From Candidatus Babelota bacterium (GTDB lineage: Bacteria > Babelota > Babeliae > Babelales > Vermiphilaceae): a stretch of DNA of 64,000 nucleotides. Location: NCBI GenBank assembly GCA_049325595.1, contig JBMOLF010000015.1, positions 1-64,000 of the forward strand. Direction: 5' to 3'. Position 1 is the stretch's first letter; the number at the start of each line of letters is the position of its first letter. The position numbers were made by a program. Below, in pieces: positions 15,001 to 24,000 of the stretch.

Positions 15001-18000
15001 TAACGTATCATCTGAGATATTATCAAGTAAATAAAATATCTCATCAACACTTAAATAAATAGGCAATTTTTTTTCTAAGCGTGGCCGTTGCATAGTAATA
15101 TCAAGTTGAATTCCTTGAGTGCGTAAAAAACGGTCAAATGATTTAAAGCACGAAAGTTTTCGAGCAATAGAAGCTTTACTGATTTTTTTATAATATAAAC
15201 TCACCAAGTAACGCTCAATAATATTTTTAAAACTTAAATTTTCTTTTTCTTCAGCGGTGAGTTTTTGCCAAAACAATACAAATTGCTCAAGATCGGTGGC
15301 ATAGGCACGTTGGGTATGATCAGAGCAGTTTTTTGCGATTGATAAGAAAGTAAGAAATTCGTTTTTTTTCTCTATAAATTGCGTAAGTTCCATGGCTTTG
15401 AATCCTGCATTAAAACCGTTTCGTGGTTAGGATAGTTTATTAACACAGGATTATCAACTCTTTTGAGAGTGATTTTTTATTGCAAGCTATATTCTTTACA
15501 CCGTCTATTCACTGAAGATCTATTAACTCCCAGATATTCGGCAATACGAGCTTGGCTTTTGAAGGTCTTCCACAATTGTGACATTAACTGGGGATCTTTT
15601 AAAGCAAGCTTCCCGAGTCGCATTGCCTGTGCAATTTCTGGTTTAATGTCATAAAGATAATTATTATCTTGTATAATTTTGTCTATTCTATTTTGTGCAT
15701 GCTCAAAAACCATTGTTTTAAGATCGTAAAGCGTTGTTGGTTTATAATTTTGAAAAAGAGTGATTAAAAAATCATTAGGAATGGTATTTAGGCATTCTTG
15801 CTTAAGATAATTACTTGCTATATCTGCCAACTCACTTGTTTTGAGCAGTGTTAAGTCGGGCATTGTGAGTATACCTGATTTAAGCTCATCATAAAGTTCT
15901 TGGTAAAATAACCCTTCTTTAACCTGCAAAGATAATTTTTTATGGGTTGAGCAAATAATCCTTACGTTAATACAAACTTTTTTCTGGTTTGTCGGATCGG
16001 TAAAAAAACCATATTTAATAACATCAGCTAGTTGTTTTTGTACTTTTAAATCTAATGCATCAATATTTTTTATAAATAAAGTTCCGCTATTGTTAAGTTG
16101 TTCTAACAATGAAGTTTTTTTATTTTTTTGGCAGTCAAATAATAATTGCTCGTAATCTTCTTCGCTTAATTTACCATCTATAGTATGTAGGATCTGTCGA
16201 GAGCTAGTTTCATGCAAAAAGTTAACTAGTTCGTTTAAGTCTTCAACAGGTGCTTGCAACAAGGTTGCTTTTTTACTTAAGGCAGCTTCTAATAAATCTA
16301 CTTTAAAGTTAAGTAGATCTGGTGCAGAACCAGGAATTAAGGTATTAATACGGTGACCAGGTTTAGTAGTTTCTAGATATAAAAGATAATCAAAACGGGT
16401 TGGATTATTAAGTAATGCTATTTTTTGAGAAATAGATTCGGTAAGATCAGCCCGGCTAATACTGATAATGCAATTGTTTCCTTGATGATTATAAACAGCC
16501 GTTATCATGTAACGATTACCTTTGCCATCACAGGTGTAACAATTATAGGGCGTTTGATAACGTTCAACATATCGCGCACTATTTTTTAGCGACTGTAAAA
16601 GAGGGTGGGATTGGTTATTGCCAATTAAAGAAGCAATTTTTTTTGCGCTATCATTTGCATATTCAAGGGTATTTTTATGACTAAAAATAATACCAATTTC
16701 TTGGGCTTGGCTAGTGATTAAAAATGAACGAATACTTTCTTTATAGTGAGCCAGTTCCAAATGTTTTTTATATAAATCATCTTTTAATTTTTTTTCTTGA
16801 TGAGAACAATGATCAGTGTCATGTAACAAGGCGTTTATTTTAGTAGCTAAATATTTTGCATATAAGATCATTTCATGTCGATCTATATTTGAATACAGCT
16901 CTTTTCTGGCAGCTTTTTGAATGACTATAAAAGCTATCATGCGTTCTTTTTCTATGATTGGCAAAAAAACATCTGCGCTGATTGAATCTAAAAATGATAA
17001 TAGCTTAGCAGTGCCCTCATTTGAGTTATAAAAGTTATTAAGTGCCAAATCATCGTATACTAAAATTTTTTCTTCTTTTATTATCGGGCAAACTAATAGT
17101 CCATGATTGTTTATTAACTGCTCAACGTTATTAATTAAAATACCTGTATTATTAGCTGAGGATGAATAATCCCTGAGTAGCAATACTACATTACAAGATG
17201 ATATTGAAAAATTAGTTTCAAAGAAATGTTCTGTTAGTAGATTGAGTTTTTCGATAGTATTGCAGCTATGAAGTTCTTCAATTATTTCTTTAAATTGATA
17301 GATAAAAGAAGGACGAGGTGAAGATTCAATCAATTCTTTGCAATTAAGAAATCGTAATCGAATTACCCGATACATACAATAACTCATAGCAGCGGTTAGA
17401 AAAAGATTTGAAAAACCAACCAAAATGGGTGAATAGATGTGTATTGAGCGCCAGAAAAAGTGAATGACCATAATAAAATCATATAAAAAAAATGGAACAA
17501 TAAAGGTGCCCATCAATGTTAAAATTTGTTTTTTTAGAATTTTAGGCAAAAAAATATTTTTTGTTTCTCTGAAGGAAAAATATAATAAAAATAACGACCA
17601 AATTCCTTGAATCAATAAGAAAATAGAAGTTATTTTCATAGCGGCTATTTCTAAAGGAACGGTGGCAAAAAGCGATTGTGCAAGATAATAATTACGTTCA
17701 TCCTTACTTAAAAAGTTTTCACAAAATAATGCATCATATATAAAGTAAGAAAAAAGTATAAAACTAATACCTATAAAAAAAAGATTCCCTTTTCGGATTC
17801 TGAATGAGGTGAATATAAAATTATCTAAAAATAAGGCAAAAGCTTGATATTGAACGACCAAAAATGCCCAACCAATTCTAATAAGTGACATAACAAAATC
17901 GCGTGCGATAACTTCTGAAAAAAATAAAATCCTTAAAAGTTTTGTAAAACCGGCAACATCACCTAATAAAGAACTACATATAACACAAATTAATAACAAC

Positions 18001-21000: not shown

Positions 21001-24000
21001 GAATCGCGAATATTTTATAACTGGTGCTGTAGATTGTCTTATGTATACAAAAAATAAAATGATAGATTTAAATATAAAAGATATTACACTAACGGACAAA
21101 GCAAAAGGTAGGCTGCCGAGTATATATTCGAAAAAGTTTAGAGGATTATTCATTATTTATTGATGTTATAGAATTAGATAACTATAATATTAGTATAATT
21201 TTTATTAATAATAACACAAACAATGTTCGATGGAGTTCATTTATGAAATTCTTAAATGCCTCATTGTGGTCAGCTTTATTAACTATAGTTCTATTATCTA
21301 ATATTATACCTCCATGTGATGGCTGATTTAGCATATGTCTATGGCTTTAAATAATGACCATACTGACCGGGCTATAAAAATTATTCATATTTTGAGAAAA
21401 GCTACTCAAGGTATGGTCAAGCCAGCTTCTGTAACTATTACTGAACAATTTGGTAAAAATCCTTATTTGGTGCTTATTAGTTGTATACTCAGTCTTCGCA
21501 CTAAAGATACCGTATCGCTTCCCGCTTCAATAAGATTATTTGAACATGCTCAAACACCAGAGCAAATGCTTGCAGTCCCAGTAAAAACCATAGAAAAACT
21601 TATCTATCCTTGCGGTTTTTATCGCCGTAAAGCGATTAATATTCATGAAATTAGTCAATCATTGCTTGATAAATTTGAAGGTAAAGTGCCTGCTACCCTT
21701 ACCAAATTGCTTACTTTAAAAGGTGTTGGGCTCAAAACAGCTAATTTAGTGTTAGGAGAAGGATTTGGCATTCCTGCCTTGTGTGTTGACACCCATGTTC
21801 ACCGGATATCAAATCGTCTTGGGTTGGTAAAGACAAAAACACCTGAAGAAACTGAAAAAGAATTAAAAAGAATAATTCCGCCAGAATATTGGATTGAATA
21901 TAGCCATTTAATGGTGATGTGGGGACAAAATATTTGTGTGCCGATCTCTCCATTTTGCACTAAATGCGCTATTAAAGATCTATGTCCTCAAATTGGCGTA
22001 ACCAAATTTAGATAAGATTACGCCCTGAGTTTTTTAAATTTACTTGTTATTTGCTTCGTCTGCCTTTGTAATAAACTGCTCAAAGGATAAGCCAAATTCT
22101 TGTTTTCCATTAGCATAACGCAAGGTAATGGTATCGTTGTCCATTTCTTTTTGGCCAATAACAACCATCCAAGGCACTTTCTCTAATTGTGCTGTTTTTA
22201 TTTGGCCAGAAAGTGGGTCAGATGAATTATCTTGTTCCACGCGTAATCCATGAGCTCTTAGTTTTTGTGCGAGTATAGAAGCATATTCTTTTTGTGCATC
22301 GGTAATTGTTAAAATTTTAATTTGTACCGGAGCAAGCCAGAAAGGGAAATTGCCTTTATAGTGTTCAATCAAAATGGCCAAGAAACGTTCAAATGAGCCA
22401 TAAATAGCACGATGGATCATGACCGGTCTTTGGCGCGCGCCGCCCGAAGCTACATAGGTGAGATCGAAATTTTCAGGCAAGAAAAAATCAACTTGAATAG
22501 TACTTACTTGCCATTCTCTACCCATTGAATCTTTAATGCGGAATTCAATTTTGGGGCCATAAAAGGCGCCTTCGCCTTCGTTAATAGTGTAATTAATGCC
22601 TGCTTGTTCTAATGAGTTTTTTAAAGCGTTGGTTGCTTGGTCCCATAGCTCATCGCTCCCCATAGCTTTTTCTGGTTTAGTCGAGAGAGCAACACTAATT
22701 TGGTTAAAATTAAAGCGATTTAAAACATGATAGGTTAAATCAATGAGTTTTTTTAATTCTGAGCCAAGTTGATCAGGTGTACAAAAAATATGTGCATCAT
22801 CTTGAGTGAAAGCGCGAACACGCAATAAACCATGTAATACACCGGAAAGTTCATGACGATGAACATGTCCAAATTCTGCAAGTCGTAGGGGTAATTCTTT
22901 GTATGAATGAGGGTGATCTTTATAAATTAAAATAGCACCTGGGCAATTCATAGGTTTTATTGCATATTGTTTTTCATCAATAGTGCAAAAATACATATTA
23001 TTTTTGTAATGCTGATAATGACCTGATTGTTGCCACAAATGATCGGATAACATGGTTGGCGTAGTAACTTCTTCGTAATTTTGCTCATCAAGTAATTTTT
23101 TTAAGTAGTTTTTTAATGCATTTAAAATGCGCATTCCTTTAGGATGGAAAAAGGGGAAGCCAACACCCTCTTCATGAAAGGAAAAAAGGTCCATTTGTTT
23201 GCCAAGTTTGCGATGATCATACATGGCAGCTTCTTCTTTTAATTTTTCATACTCAGCAAGTTCTTTTGCCGTAAAAAAAGCAGTGCCCGTAATGCGCTGT
23301 AACGCTTGGTTTTTTTTATCGCCGCGCCAATAGGCGCCAGAAATATTGAGTAATTTAAAATGGGCAAGTTCACCAGTGGTTGCTACATGACCGCCGCGGC
23401 AAAGATCAATAAAATCTCCTTGCTGAGCAATACCAACGGTATCTCCCGGAATTTGATCAATAAGTTCAAGTTTAAATGGATTATTTTTATATAGTTCTCG
23501 TGCTTTTTCTTTACTGGTTTGATAATGAGTTAATGGTAAATTACGTGCTACGATTTCATGCATGCGACGAGAGATAATAGGTAAATCTTCTTCTTTAAAA
23601 TTAATCGATGGTAAGAAATCATAAAAGAATCCATCTTCAGTTGCTGGTCCAATAGTAAGTAAGGTATCCGGAAATAATTCGGTAACAGCTTGTGCTAATA
23701 AGTGAGCAGCTGAATGTCTTAAAATTGCAAGATCATTATTAGATTTCATAGTCGTATCCATATAGTTAATTTACTCGATAATAAGTATATTATCATTTAT
23801 TGGGAGAATTTATACTCGGAAAATATCCACATTTTATTTTTGAGAAAGGCTTTCTATGAACACTGAACGCAGGTTTAATACTACAATTGAACAAGCATGG
23901 CATAGTTTTAAAAAAAATTTATTTACTCTTATAGGAGCAAGTTTTTTAAAATGGATTACCCTATTTGGGCTCATGTTTGCCATAGGTGGCATGATCGTTG

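What a model noticed while it worked through the whole genome (the two positions that open the first line are those of the whole stretch)
15477..21153. Membrane-anchored, ATPase-dead bEBP-like regulators in a genome without sigma-54
g00892 (C15:15477-18140, -, 887 aa) and its paralogue g00894 (C15:18445-21153, -, 902 aa), labelled 'sigma-54 interacting transcriptional regulator' in databases, cannot work through sigma-54: the genome has no rpoN (one sigma factor, RpoD g01257), and their NtrC-type AAA+ domain has lost Walker A (L-L-E-x-P-E-E-D in its place), Walker B (GTLFI-[KQ]-N for GTLFLDE) and the GAFTGA loop. They are integral membrane one-component regulators: ~8 TM helices (aa 1-263), a GAF-like domain (277-440), coiled coil, a PAS-like domain (483-575), pseudo-AAA+ (600-800), Fis-type HTH (863-883); probably main signal-responsive sigma-70 regulators of this regulator-poor parasite.
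Evidence so far: Pfam hits cover only hmm 82-163 of 168 of Sigma54_activat; no GxxxxGK[ST] and no GAFTGA-like motif in either protein. AF2 with a 34-row alignment: mean pLDDT 81.6, 8 long N-terminal helices; Foldseek PDB: PspF, NtrC1, FlrC, FleQ, ZraR, NtrX, VpsR AAA+ domains, E 1e-8 to 1e-6, ~230 columns, TMt 0.6-0.66. In 34 homologues the P-loop columns are L/E/M/P/E/E/D (D634 34/34), Walker B columns K16+Q14 and N32 of 34. Sigma54_DBD PF04552: 0 hits in the own genome and 0 of 61 high-quality Babelales genomes over the cut-off. 125 homologues at E<=1e-10, mostly ~900 aa. Only about a dozen regulator-type Pfam genes in the genome.
(Added by a program. Inside this text positions count along the whole contig: contig position 1 is position 1 of the stretch shown here. 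"Call 12" and the like, gene names such as g00115 and contig names such as C1 are that model's own, and its searches are not shown. The text may have been shortened before it was handed on; [...] marks where a part breaks off. The agent that wrote the report below was given it as the finding of a first reader that could run no searches.)

Follow-up and report, generated by a model that had tools for sequence, protein, structure and literature searches.

The report
Membrane-bound, ATPase-dead NtrC-like gene regulators
Two neighbouring genes of an intracellular parasite (phylum Dependentiae) each fuse a seven-helix membrane receptor to a DNA-binding protein that descends from sigma-54 activators but has lost its motor, in a phylum where no sigma-54 was found.

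Summary
ORFs 15477-18140(-) (887 aa) and 18445-21153(-) (902 aa) are full-length paralogues, 36% identical. Their NtrC-type AAA+ core passes Pfam's cut-off only in its second half. In 61 family members, 0 have GxxxxGK[ST] and 0 have a GAFTGA-like motif. Walker B D-E is Q/K + N, and both arginine-finger columns are S and E.

No Sigma54_DBD match over the cut-off was found in the own genome (95% complete) or in 201 genomes sampled from the phylum. The genome has one Sigma70_r2 gene, no receiver domain and no histidine kinase.

Corrections and additions:
- The GAF and PAS folds are confirmed by separate searches.
- The family is found in 152 of 201 phylum genomes. An NtrX-like receiver-type relative that keeps its P-loop fills the families that lack it.
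- The gene heads a conserved regulator-xerC-mrdA block.

Most likely these are sigma-70-dependent, membrane-anchored one-component regulators. DNA targets and signal are unknown.

The scan noted this family before in two other genomes. It is a new variant of the known sigma-54-independent enhancer-binding-protein relatives.

The parts
15477..18140 (-). Regulator A gene (887 aa, P0001): 7TM-GAF-helix-PAS-pseudoAAA+-HTH. It is the faster-evolving paralogue.
   Evidence: tree (52% identity to its same-genus orthologue, against 71% for paralogue B)
17334..18140 (-). Seven-helix membrane domain, aa 1-269. Helices 12-39, 45-72, 80-109, 117-139, 163-193, 200-226 and 231-269, plus a short loop helix 146-154. 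N-terminus outside, C-terminus inside.
16815..17339 (-). GAF-fold domain, aa 268-442
16716..16814 (-). Long connecting helix (signalling-helix-like), aa 443-475, ending in the invariant Y466-K467-E468 motif
   Evidence: model helix 175-208; invariant columns
16446..16703 (-). PAS-fold domain, aa 480-565
15786..16331 (-). Degenerate NtrC-type AAA+ domain, aa 604-785. Walker A, Walker B, GAFTGA and both arginine fingers are replaced.
15480..15623 (-). C-terminal Fis-type helix-turn-helix, aa 840-887, the most conserved stretch of the family (G843, A846, L847, F860, Q863, A867, L870, V872, R874, S875, S876, R879, R880 invariant in 61 rows)
   Evidence: NCBIfam alignments to DhaR, TyrR and PrpR run to the C-terminus. 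HTH_8 matched 9 of 54 members at E<=0.1.
18445..21153 (-). Regulator B gene (902 aa, P0002), same architecture; Walker B position reads GTLYIEN
18403..18427 (.). Terminator-like hairpin on both strands, just after the stop of regulator B. It suggests the two paralogues are separate transcription units.
14455..15393 (-). XerC/XerD-like tyrosine recombinase, 83 nt downstream of regulator A on the same strand; a conserved neighbour
   Evidence: 279.5 bits to XerC, below the 335 cut-off; synteny
12741..14468 (-). PBP2 / MrdA transpeptidase, overlapping the recombinase gene by 14 nt; a conserved neighbour
   Evidence: TIGR03423 480.8 bits against a cut-off of 455; synteny
21335..22015 (+). Endonuclease III-like gene, divergent from regulator B; a conserved neighbour
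   Evidence: synteny

Best explanation
Each gene encodes a membrane-anchored one-component signal transducer. A seven-helix, GPCR-fold membrane domain has its N-terminus outside and only short outer loops. A ligand or membrane cue would therefore be read inside the helix bundle.

The receptor passes its state through the invariant R263-F264-L265-N266 junction to a cytoplasmic GAF domain, a long helix and a PAS domain. From there it reaches an NtrC-type AAA+ domain that has lost every nucleotide-binding, hydrolysis and sigma-54-contact residue. That domain now serves only as a structural relay or oligomerisation scaffold.

The output is the invariant C-terminal Fis-type helix-turn-helix. It binds DNA close to the membrane and activates or represses promoters read by the single sigma-70 holoenzyme, as GAFTGA-less relatives such as TyrR, DhaR, NtrX, VpsR and Rhodobacter NtrC do.

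Shown: the architecture, the motif loss, that no rpoN was found, and phylum-wide conservation. Inferred: DNA binding, sigma-70 dependence, the direction of signalling, and a possible tie to the co-oriented xerC-mrdA genes.
For: Architecture:
- 7TM model with pLDDT 92 and pTM 0.88.
- GAF and PAS folds.
- AAA+ homology: Pfam E 2.3e-11; PDB NtrC4 E 7.7e-10 over residues 604-764.

Motor loss: 0 of 61 members with a P-loop, 0 of 61 with GAFTGA, Walker B Q/K-N, arginine fingers S and E.

No sigma-54 found: 0 hits in the own genome and 0 of 201 phylum genomes over the cut-off. There is one Sigma70_r2 gene.

DNA-binding tail: it is the most conserved part, with 13 invariant residues in aa 843-880.

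Selection: the family is present in 152 of 201 phylum genomes. The gene tree follows taxonomy, needing 10 label changes where the minimum is 9.

No rival signalling route found in this genome: 0 receiver domains. The only two HATPase_c ORFs carry GyrB and MutL motifs.

Literature: GAFTGA-defective relatives act at sigma-70 promoters, some without ATP hydrolysis. I read passages of PMC3162934 and of preprint 10.1101/2023.06.06.543975.
Against: - There is no direct evidence of DNA binding. Pfam HTH_8 is weak (E 0.17 in this protein; 9 of 54 members at E<=0.1).
- A search for a shared inverted repeat upstream of 53 family genes found nothing. The best pattern occurred in 3 of 53 sequences, and shuffled sequences reached 2-4.
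- A helix-turn-helix tethered about 600 residues from a 7TM anchor must meet DNA at the membrane.
- The conserved gene block also holds thrS and nth, which are not related in function. The synteny may therefore only reflect stable gene order.
- The oligomeric state is untested.
Confidence: 0.7

Rival explanations
1. The membrane form is a latent precursor. A signal triggers proteolytic release of the cytoplasmic GAF-PAS-pseudoAAA+-HTH part, which then acts as a soluble sigma-70-dependent regulator.
For: The soluble part has the same domain order as DhaR-type regulators. NCBIfam's best hit for the 902-aa paralogue is DhaR, E 3e-15, far below its cut-off. Lon and other AAA+ proteases are encoded in the genome.
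Against: No cleavage motif or site-2-protease partner was sought or found. The invariant TM7-GAF junction (R263, F264, L265) points to conformational coupling rather than cutting. All full-length homologues keep the fusion.
Confidence: 0.1
2. The protein is not a transcription factor. It is a membrane-DNA tether that organises the chromosome or couples dimer resolution and wall synthesis (XerC, PBP2) to a membrane signal.
For: The regulator-xerC-mrdA order on one strand is kept in 10 of 14 loci from other families, with gaps of 13-24 nt in 5 of them. XerC-like hits lie beside the gene in 8 of 11 loci of the own family.
Against: thrS and nth are conserved in the same block, so gene order alone is weak evidence. 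Three of the 14 loci lack all these neighbours. The closest relatives of the output domain are all transcription regulators.
Confidence: 0.1
3. The AAA+ domain is still a nucleotide or second-messenger sensor through a non-canonical site, as FleQ and VpsR use c-di-GMP. The acidic E-M-P-E-E-D loop would be part of a new ligand pocket.
For: The replaced P-loop is itself strongly conserved: D634 in 61 of 61, P631 in 43 of 61, L635 in 51 of 61. This argues for a retained role of that site.
Against: No GGDEF domain and no class III cyclase were found in the own genome. An acidic loop is poorly suited to binding phosphates. That FleQ and VpsR bind c-di-GMP is recalled, not taken from a call.
Confidence: 0.07
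4. The proteins are canonical sigma-54 activators and rpoN was missed because assemblies are incomplete.
For: The genome is 94.96% complete. One genome in the phylum sample has a 21.9-bit sub-threshold Sigma54_DBD fragment at the end of a 1,644-base contig.
Against: 0 of 201 genomes pass the cut-off, including single-contig assemblies. Independently, GAFTGA, Walker A, Walker B and the arginine fingers are all absent in 61 of 61 members.
Confidence: 0.01

Closest known systems
Sigma-54-independent enhancer-binding-protein relatives: E. coli TyrR and DhaR, R. capsulatus NtrC and HupR, V. cholerae VpsR, Caulobacter NtrC
   Same: NtrC-type AAA+ core with a defective or deleted GAFTGA loop, followed by a C-terminal Fis-type HTH. 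They act at sigma-70 promoters, some without ATP hydrolysis (passages of PMC3162934, and of 10.1101/2023.06.06.543975). As I recall it (no call), DhaR shares the GAF-PAS-AAA+-HTH order. DhaR is the best NCBIfam hit of the 902-aa paralogue, E 3e-15.
   Different: Those proteins are soluble and, as far as I recall (not tested here), keep a Walker A P-loop. This family is fused to a 7TM receptor. It has also lost Walker A, Walker B and both arginine fingers in 61 of 61 members. NCBIfam scores (48-56 bits) are far below every equivalog cut-off (443-703).
NtrX-like receiver-AAA+-HTH response regulator of other Dependentiae families (example L064:892-2184, 431 aa)
   Same: Same phylum, where no rpoN was found. 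No GAFTGA. The same Walker B replacement (GTLFVKNI against GTLFIKNI) and lost arginine fingers. BLASTP to the 902-aa paralogue gives E 8e-6, 28% identity over 82 residues.
   Different: It is soluble, has a receiver domain, and keeps the P-loop GTGK in 6 of 6 loci read. Its distribution is complementary: families f10 22 of 23, f12 9 of 9 and f15 1 of 1, where the 7TM type scores 0 of 23, 0 of 9 and 0 of 1. It lies in a different gene context, mlaE-mlaF-gene-moxR.
Canonical bacterial enhancer-binding proteins (NtrC1, NtrC4, PspF, ZraR, FleQ)
   Same: Homologous AAA+ alpha/beta core by sequence: 30 PDB sequences at E<=0.001, best 3dzd at 7.7e-10.
   Different: No ATPase motifs, no sigma-54 contact loop, and no sigma-54 found in the genome.
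Bacterial 7TM receptor modules such as HisKA_7TM (PF16927), and the eukaryotic GPCR fold
   Different: No sequence relation was shown. 0 of 54 members hit any 7TM Pfam family at E<=0.1. Identity to GPCRs is 6-12%. A profile of the 7TM domain alone finds 397 proteins in 1.84 billion representatives. The best 150 are all about 900 aa or fragments of such proteins.
Membrane-integral one-component transcription regulators (ToxR, CadC type)
   Same: A single polypeptide joins a membrane sensor to a DNA-binding domain, so DNA is bound at the membrane. This is recalled, not tested here.
   Different: Those are bitopic proteins with an N-terminal winged-helix domain. This family is polytopic (7TM) with a C-terminal Fis-type HTH and three intervening cytoplasmic domains.

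Membership tests
Bacterial enhancer-binding proteins (sigma-54 activators, Pfam Sigma54_activat) | Homologous NtrC-type AAA+ core | tested here: met
   PF00158 at 44.1 and 40.5 bits against a cut-off of 20.2, though only hmm 82-163 and 69-167 are covered. 54 of 54 members hit. PDB phmmer E 7.7e-10.
Bacterial enhancer-binding proteins (sigma-54 activators, Pfam Sigma54_activat) | Walker A GxxxxGK[ST] | tested here: not met
   0 of 61 members. The lysine column is L, I, M or V in 48 of 61.
Bacterial enhancer-binding proteins (sigma-54 activators, Pfam Sigma54_activat) | Walker B hhhhDE | tested here: not met
   D column: Q34, K22, E2, D2, R1. E column: N59, Q1, D1. All of 61.
Bacterial enhancer-binding proteins (sigma-54 activators, Pfam Sigma54_activat) | GAFTGA loop that contacts sigma-54 | tested here: not met
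   0 of 61 with G[AS]F[TS]GA. The aligned stretch is variable and partly deleted.
Bacterial enhancer-binding proteins (sigma-54 activators, Pfam Sigma54_activat) | Two arginine fingers (FRxDLxxRL) | tested here: not met
   The two columns are S in 50 of 61 and E in 50 of 61.
Bacterial enhancer-binding proteins (sigma-54 activators, Pfam Sigma54_activat) | rpoN (sigma-54) present in the genome | tested here: not met
   PF04552: 0 hits in the own genome (95% complete) and 0 of 201 phylum genomes over the cut-off. The PF04963 sub-threshold hit is the Lon protease.
Bacterial enhancer-binding proteins (sigma-54 activators, Pfam Sigma54_activat) | C-terminal Fis-type HTH | tested here: met
   NCBIfam alignments to DhaR, TyrR and PrpR run to residues 883-886 and 900-901. 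HTH_8 hits 9 of 54 members at E<=0.1. The recognition-helix residues are invariant. The Pfam score is below its cut-off.
Sigma-54-independent EBP relatives (TyrR, DhaR, NtrX, VpsR type) | NtrC-type AAA+ without GAFTGA, plus an HTH | tested here: met
Sigma-54-independent EBP relatives (TyrR, DhaR, NtrX, VpsR type) | Equivalog-level similarity to a named member | tested here: not met
   Best NCBIfam scores are 48.2 bits (PspF) and 55.6 bits (DhaR), against cut-offs of 443-703.
Sigma-54-independent EBP relatives (TyrR, DhaR, NtrX, VpsR type) | Acts at sigma-70 promoters | not testable with these tools
   Inferred only from the single sigma factor and from no rpoN being found.
HisKA_7TM (PF16927) sensor domain | Profile match to the family | tested here: inconclusive
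   0 of 54 members at E<=0.1. The Atlas structure rows with this family have TM 0.64-0.66 and are marked 'under the bar'.
GPCR-like seven-helix fold (structural class, not a homology claim) | Seven membrane helices superposable on solved GPCRs over most of the domain | tested here: met
GAF domain | GAF fold | tested here: met
PAS domain | PAS fold | tested here: met

The most novel reading that the evidence does not exclude
Dependentiae wire a GPCR-fold seven-helix receptor directly to DNA. The 7TM-GAF-PAS-pseudoAAA+-HTH protein reads a host-derived or membrane cue. Without any ATP use or sigma-54, it switches stage-specific genes of the intracellular cycle, including its own regulator-xerC-mrdA operon, and so times growth and division. 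The nucleotide-free AAA+ shell, with its invariant acidic loop in place of the P-loop, acts as a new kind of conformational relay. It evolved stepwise from an NtrX-like response regulator that other Dependentiae families still keep.
Probability: 0.25. Interest if true: 0.8.

Novelty: new variant of a known kind. Interest (0 to 1): 0.6.

Why it matters
Databases label hundreds of these proteins 'sigma-54 interacting transcriptional regulator'. That label is wrong in function for the phylum genomes sampled here, where no sigma-54 gene was found.

The family is probably one of the few signal-responsive regulators of these parasites of protists. The genome has one sigma factor and no two-component system was detected. 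Stage-specific expression is documented in the phylum, for example delayed ftsZ expression in Babela (passages of PMC4378268), but no regulator has been proposed for it in the three genome papers searched.

The family also offers a natural series for asking what an AAA+ fold does once it stops binding nucleotide. The series runs from the canonical activator, through a P-loop-only receiver type, to a fully motif-less 7TM type. In addition it is a compact bacterial example of a GPCR-fold receptor fused to its effector.

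Tried and rejected
- **Shared operator search.** I looked for a shared inverted repeat (5-mer half sites, gaps 0-15) in the 220 nt upstream of 53 family genes. The best pattern occurred in 3 of 53 sequences, and 30 shuffles reached 2-4. 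No signal.
- **Promoter and terminator scan of 15300-21500.** 33 promoter-like sites against 33.3 expected, so uninformative. Only the hairpin at 18403-18427 stands out.
- **Weak Sigma54_CBD hit in the own genome.** It is the Lon protease.
- **PexR paper (PMC12754779).** Read as a possible non-canonical parallel. [quoted passage not shown]
- **Literature searches.**
  - 'Dependentiae' with 'sigma-54': 0 papers.
  - 'Dependentiae' with 'sigma factor': 4 papers, none on this family by title or abstract.
  - Membrane-bound enhancer-binding proteins and pseudo-ATPase AAA+ transcription regulators: no listed title or abstract start describes such a protein.
- **Dimer test.** Two copies of the GAF-helix-PAS part were sent to complex prediction.
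- **Same slot for the receiver type?** I asked whether the receiver-type gene of other families sits in the nth/xerC slot. It does not.
- **Not attempted.** An outgroup-rooted tree to test whether the two Dependentiae types are sister lineages was not built, because the listed hits held no canonical sequences.
- **Earlier notes of the scan.** A look-up by place in this genome returned nothing.

Full report
**Observation.** They align end to end at 36% identity, E 8e-169. Pfam finds only the second half of the Sigma-54 interaction domain: hmm 82-163 of 168 at 44.1 bits, and 69-167 at 40.5 bits. NCBIfam hits to PspF, PrpR, NtrC, DhaR, NtrX and TyrR reach 48-56 bits against cut-offs of 443-703, so no named subfamily fits.

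**Motif loss.** A phmmer search of solved structures returns 30 enhancer-binding-protein sequences. The best, Aquifex NtrC4 (3dzd, E 7.7e-10), aligns to residues 604-764. That alignment places A-P-V-E-D-L-N-E under the P-loop G-E-S-G-T-G-K-E and 'cqknkkts' under GAFTGA. It places GTLFIKN under GTLFLDE, and FYQELYDEL under the arginine-finger stretch FREDLYYRL.

In 61 aligned family members I counted the following:
- No GxxxxGK[ST] and no GAFTGA-like motif in any member.
- D634 invariant.
- The Walker A lysine column is hydrophobic (L14, I13, M11, V10).
- Walker B columns are Q34/K22 and N59.
- Arginine-finger columns are S50 and E50.

**No sigma-54 found.**
- Sigma54_DBD gives no hit in the own genome (1.286 Mb, 24 contigs, 94.96% complete).
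- The one sub-threshold Sigma54_CBD hit (17.7 bits) lies in the Lon protease.
- In 201 genomes sampled from the phylum, 0 pass the cut-off. Two have sub-threshold fragments of 21.9 and 18.5 bits.
- The same search passes the cut-off in four of the 14 control genomes. It rings in E. coli, B. subtilis, Caulobacter, Bacteroides, Thermotoga and Lactococcus, so it can find the domain.
- One Sigma70_r2 gene is present.
- Source names place the family in Candidatus Dependentiae / Babeliales / TM6.

**Membrane domain.** I folded residues 1-270 alone with a 61-row alignment and obtained pLDDT 92 and pTM 0.88. The model has seven long helices (12-39, 45-72, 80-109, 117-139, 163-193, 200-226, 231-269) and one short helix (146-154) in a loop. 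The anchor is therefore 7TM, not about 8.

Lysines and arginines cluster in loops 1, 3 and 5 and after helix 7 (read). This fits an N-out, C-in topology, which the cytoplasmic output domains also require.

The resemblance is one of fold, not shown homology:
- No Pfam membrane family hits any of 54 members at E<=0.1.
- A profile of the 7TM part alone (32 rows) finds 397 proteins at E<=0.001 among 1.84 billion representatives (365 at 1e-10).
- The best 150 are all about 900 aa or fragments of such proteins. I could not see the 247 weaker hits.
- The Atlas points to HisKA_7TM-type sensors at TM 0.64-0.66. That is a lead only.

**Cytoplasmic sensor domains.** Residues 268-600 folded alone give pLDDT 80.3.
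- Foldseek gives tandem GAF/PHY modules of phytochromes and PDE5A at E 3e-5 to 6e-4.

Invariant residues sit at the domain junctions:
- R263-F264-L265 after helix 7.
- Y466-K467-E468 at the end of the long helix.
- L587-Y588-L589, T592 and G595 before the AAA+ domain.

This is what one expects of a signal relay.

**Output domain.** The last 45 residues are the most conserved part of the protein. G843, A846, L847, F860, Q863, A867, L870, V872, R874, S875, S876, R879 and R880 are invariant in 61 rows. NCBIfam alignments to DhaR, TyrR and PrpR extend through this helix-turn-helix. Pfam HTH_8 itself is weak: E 0.17 here, and 9 of 54 members at E<=0.1. DNA binding is therefore well supported by conservation but not shown.

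**Distribution and history.**
- The 887-aa protein finds relatives in 152 of 201 phylum genomes. These include all 66 other genomes of its own family and most genomes of 13 further families. It finds none in families f9 (0/3), f10 (0/23), f11 (0/4), f12 (0/9), f15 (0/1) and f16 (0/2).
- A family profile searched in five of those genomes found only a 431-aa protein in one f10 genome. It is a receiver-AAA+-HTH response regulator (Pfam). Its best NCBIfam hit is NtrX at 214.8 bits against a cut-off of 600.
- This receiver type keeps the P-loop (GTGK in 6 of 6 loci read). It has Walker B K-N or K-H, no GAFTGA and no arginine fingers.
- It occurs in f10 22/23, f12 9/9 and f15 1/1, and nowhere else except one receiver-only match. 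The two types are thus complementary across the phylum.
- The shared K-N at Walker B suggests a stepwise decay from one ancestor. That is an inference. I built no rooted tree.

A 53-row maximum-likelihood tree (IQ-TREE quick, LG+G4) follows the taxonomic families, with 10 label changes where 9 is the minimum.
- It puts the 887-aa protein in a clade (SH-aLRT 100) holding one copy from each of ten tandem-pair genomes of the own family.
- The 902-aa paralogue groups with the other copies.
- The tandem duplication is therefore old within this family.
- Pairs in family f8 arose separately.
- The 887-aa lineage is the faster one: 52% against 71% identity to the same-genus orthologues.

**Context.**
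- Downstream on the same strand lie a XerC/XerD-like recombinase, 83 nt after the stop, and PBP2/MrdA, which overlaps the recombinase gene by 14 nt. TIGR03423 scores 480.8 bits, over its cut-off.
- Upstream, divergent, lie endonuclease III and then ThrRS.
- In 11 loci of the own family with 1.5-kb flanks, XerC-like hits appear in 8 and PBP2 in 5.
- In 14 loci from eight other families, the recombinase follows the regulator on the same strand in 10, with gaps of 13-24 nt in five.
- In the same 14 loci, PBP2 is present in 10, the divergent nth in 10 and thrS in 7. Three loci have none of these neighbours.
- Co-transcription of regulator, xerC and mrdA is plausible. The block also keeps unrelated genes, so a functional link is not established.
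- A terminator-like hairpin at 18403-18427 separates the two paralogues.
- No shared inverted repeat was found upstream of family genes.

**Other signalling.** The own genome has no receiver domain. Its only two HATPase_c ORFs carry the domain at the N-terminus. They show GyrB and MutL signature motifs, which I recalled from memory, and no kinase H-box. No GGDEF domain and no class III cyclase were found. I did not repeat a full census of regulators.

**What is known.** GAFTGA-defective homologues that work with sigma-70 are established. Passages of Francke et al. 2011 name TyrR, DhaR and HupR. They note such homologues in Fusobacterium and Jannaschia, which lack sigma-54 (PMC3162934). Passages of the Caulobacter NtrC preprint state that some act without ATP hydrolysis and that NtrX lacks GAFTGA (10.1101/2023.06.06.543975).

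Three Dependentiae genome papers show no passage on sigma factors or on this regulator family:
- PMC4776705: none of the searched terms occurs.
- PMC4378268: only two unrelated uses of 'signal transduction'.
- PMC6561590: only MerR, YebC and FmdB are named as regulators.

'Dependentiae' with 'sigma-54' finds no paper. Two earlier notes of this scan describe the same family in two other genomes and reach the same reading.

**Verdict.** These are 7TM-GAF-PAS-pseudoAAA+-HTH one-component proteins that cannot use sigma-54. Most likely they are sigma-70-dependent, membrane-anchored regulators (confidence 0.7).

Noticed in passing
window 18239-18379 (+): A 46-aa ORF with a hydrophobic stretch (MKDLKRILYLLVPALFALALL...) lies between the two paralogues on the opposite strand. 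It converges on the two-way hairpin at 18403-18427. A weak tblastn hit (44% over 27 aa, E 3e-4) lies in the same intergenic place in the same-genus genome (L011).
   Followed up: partly
L064:892-2184 (G041), and L065-L070: Dependentiae families that lack the 7TM regulator carry a 431-aa NtrX-like receiver-AAA+-HTH protein. It has an intact P-loop but Walker B K-N and no GAFTGA. It sits in a mlaE-mlaF-gene-moxR context. Its distribution is complementary to the 7TM type (f10 22/23, f12 9/9, f15 1/1). Families f9, f11 and f16 showed neither type with these queries.
   Followed up: partly
L022 (G003:C8:52-144): A 21.9-bit match to the last 31 positions of Sigma54_DBD, just under the cut-off. It lies in a 33-aa open frame at the very end of a 1,644-base contig of another Dependentiae assembly. 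It could be a contaminant fragment or chance.
   Followed up: no
window 12741-23761 and loci L071-L084: The gene block thrS / nth / regulator / xerC-like / mrdA keeps its order and orientation across eight other families of the phylum, although protein identity is only about 33-67%.
   Followed up: yes
G138:C1:576712-579417: One family member matches over its full length but carries 4 in-frame stops (2 TGA, 1 TAG, 1 TAA). It is probably a pseudogene in that genome.
   Followed up: no
window 12332-12688 (-): A 118-aa ORF directly after mrdA on the same strand has no NCBIfam match at E<=1e-5.
   Followed up: no
window 15477-18140 (-), tree: The 887-aa paralogue and its same-genus orthologue sit on a long shared branch (0.75). 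This lineage evolves much faster than the 902-aa paralogue.
   Followed up: partly
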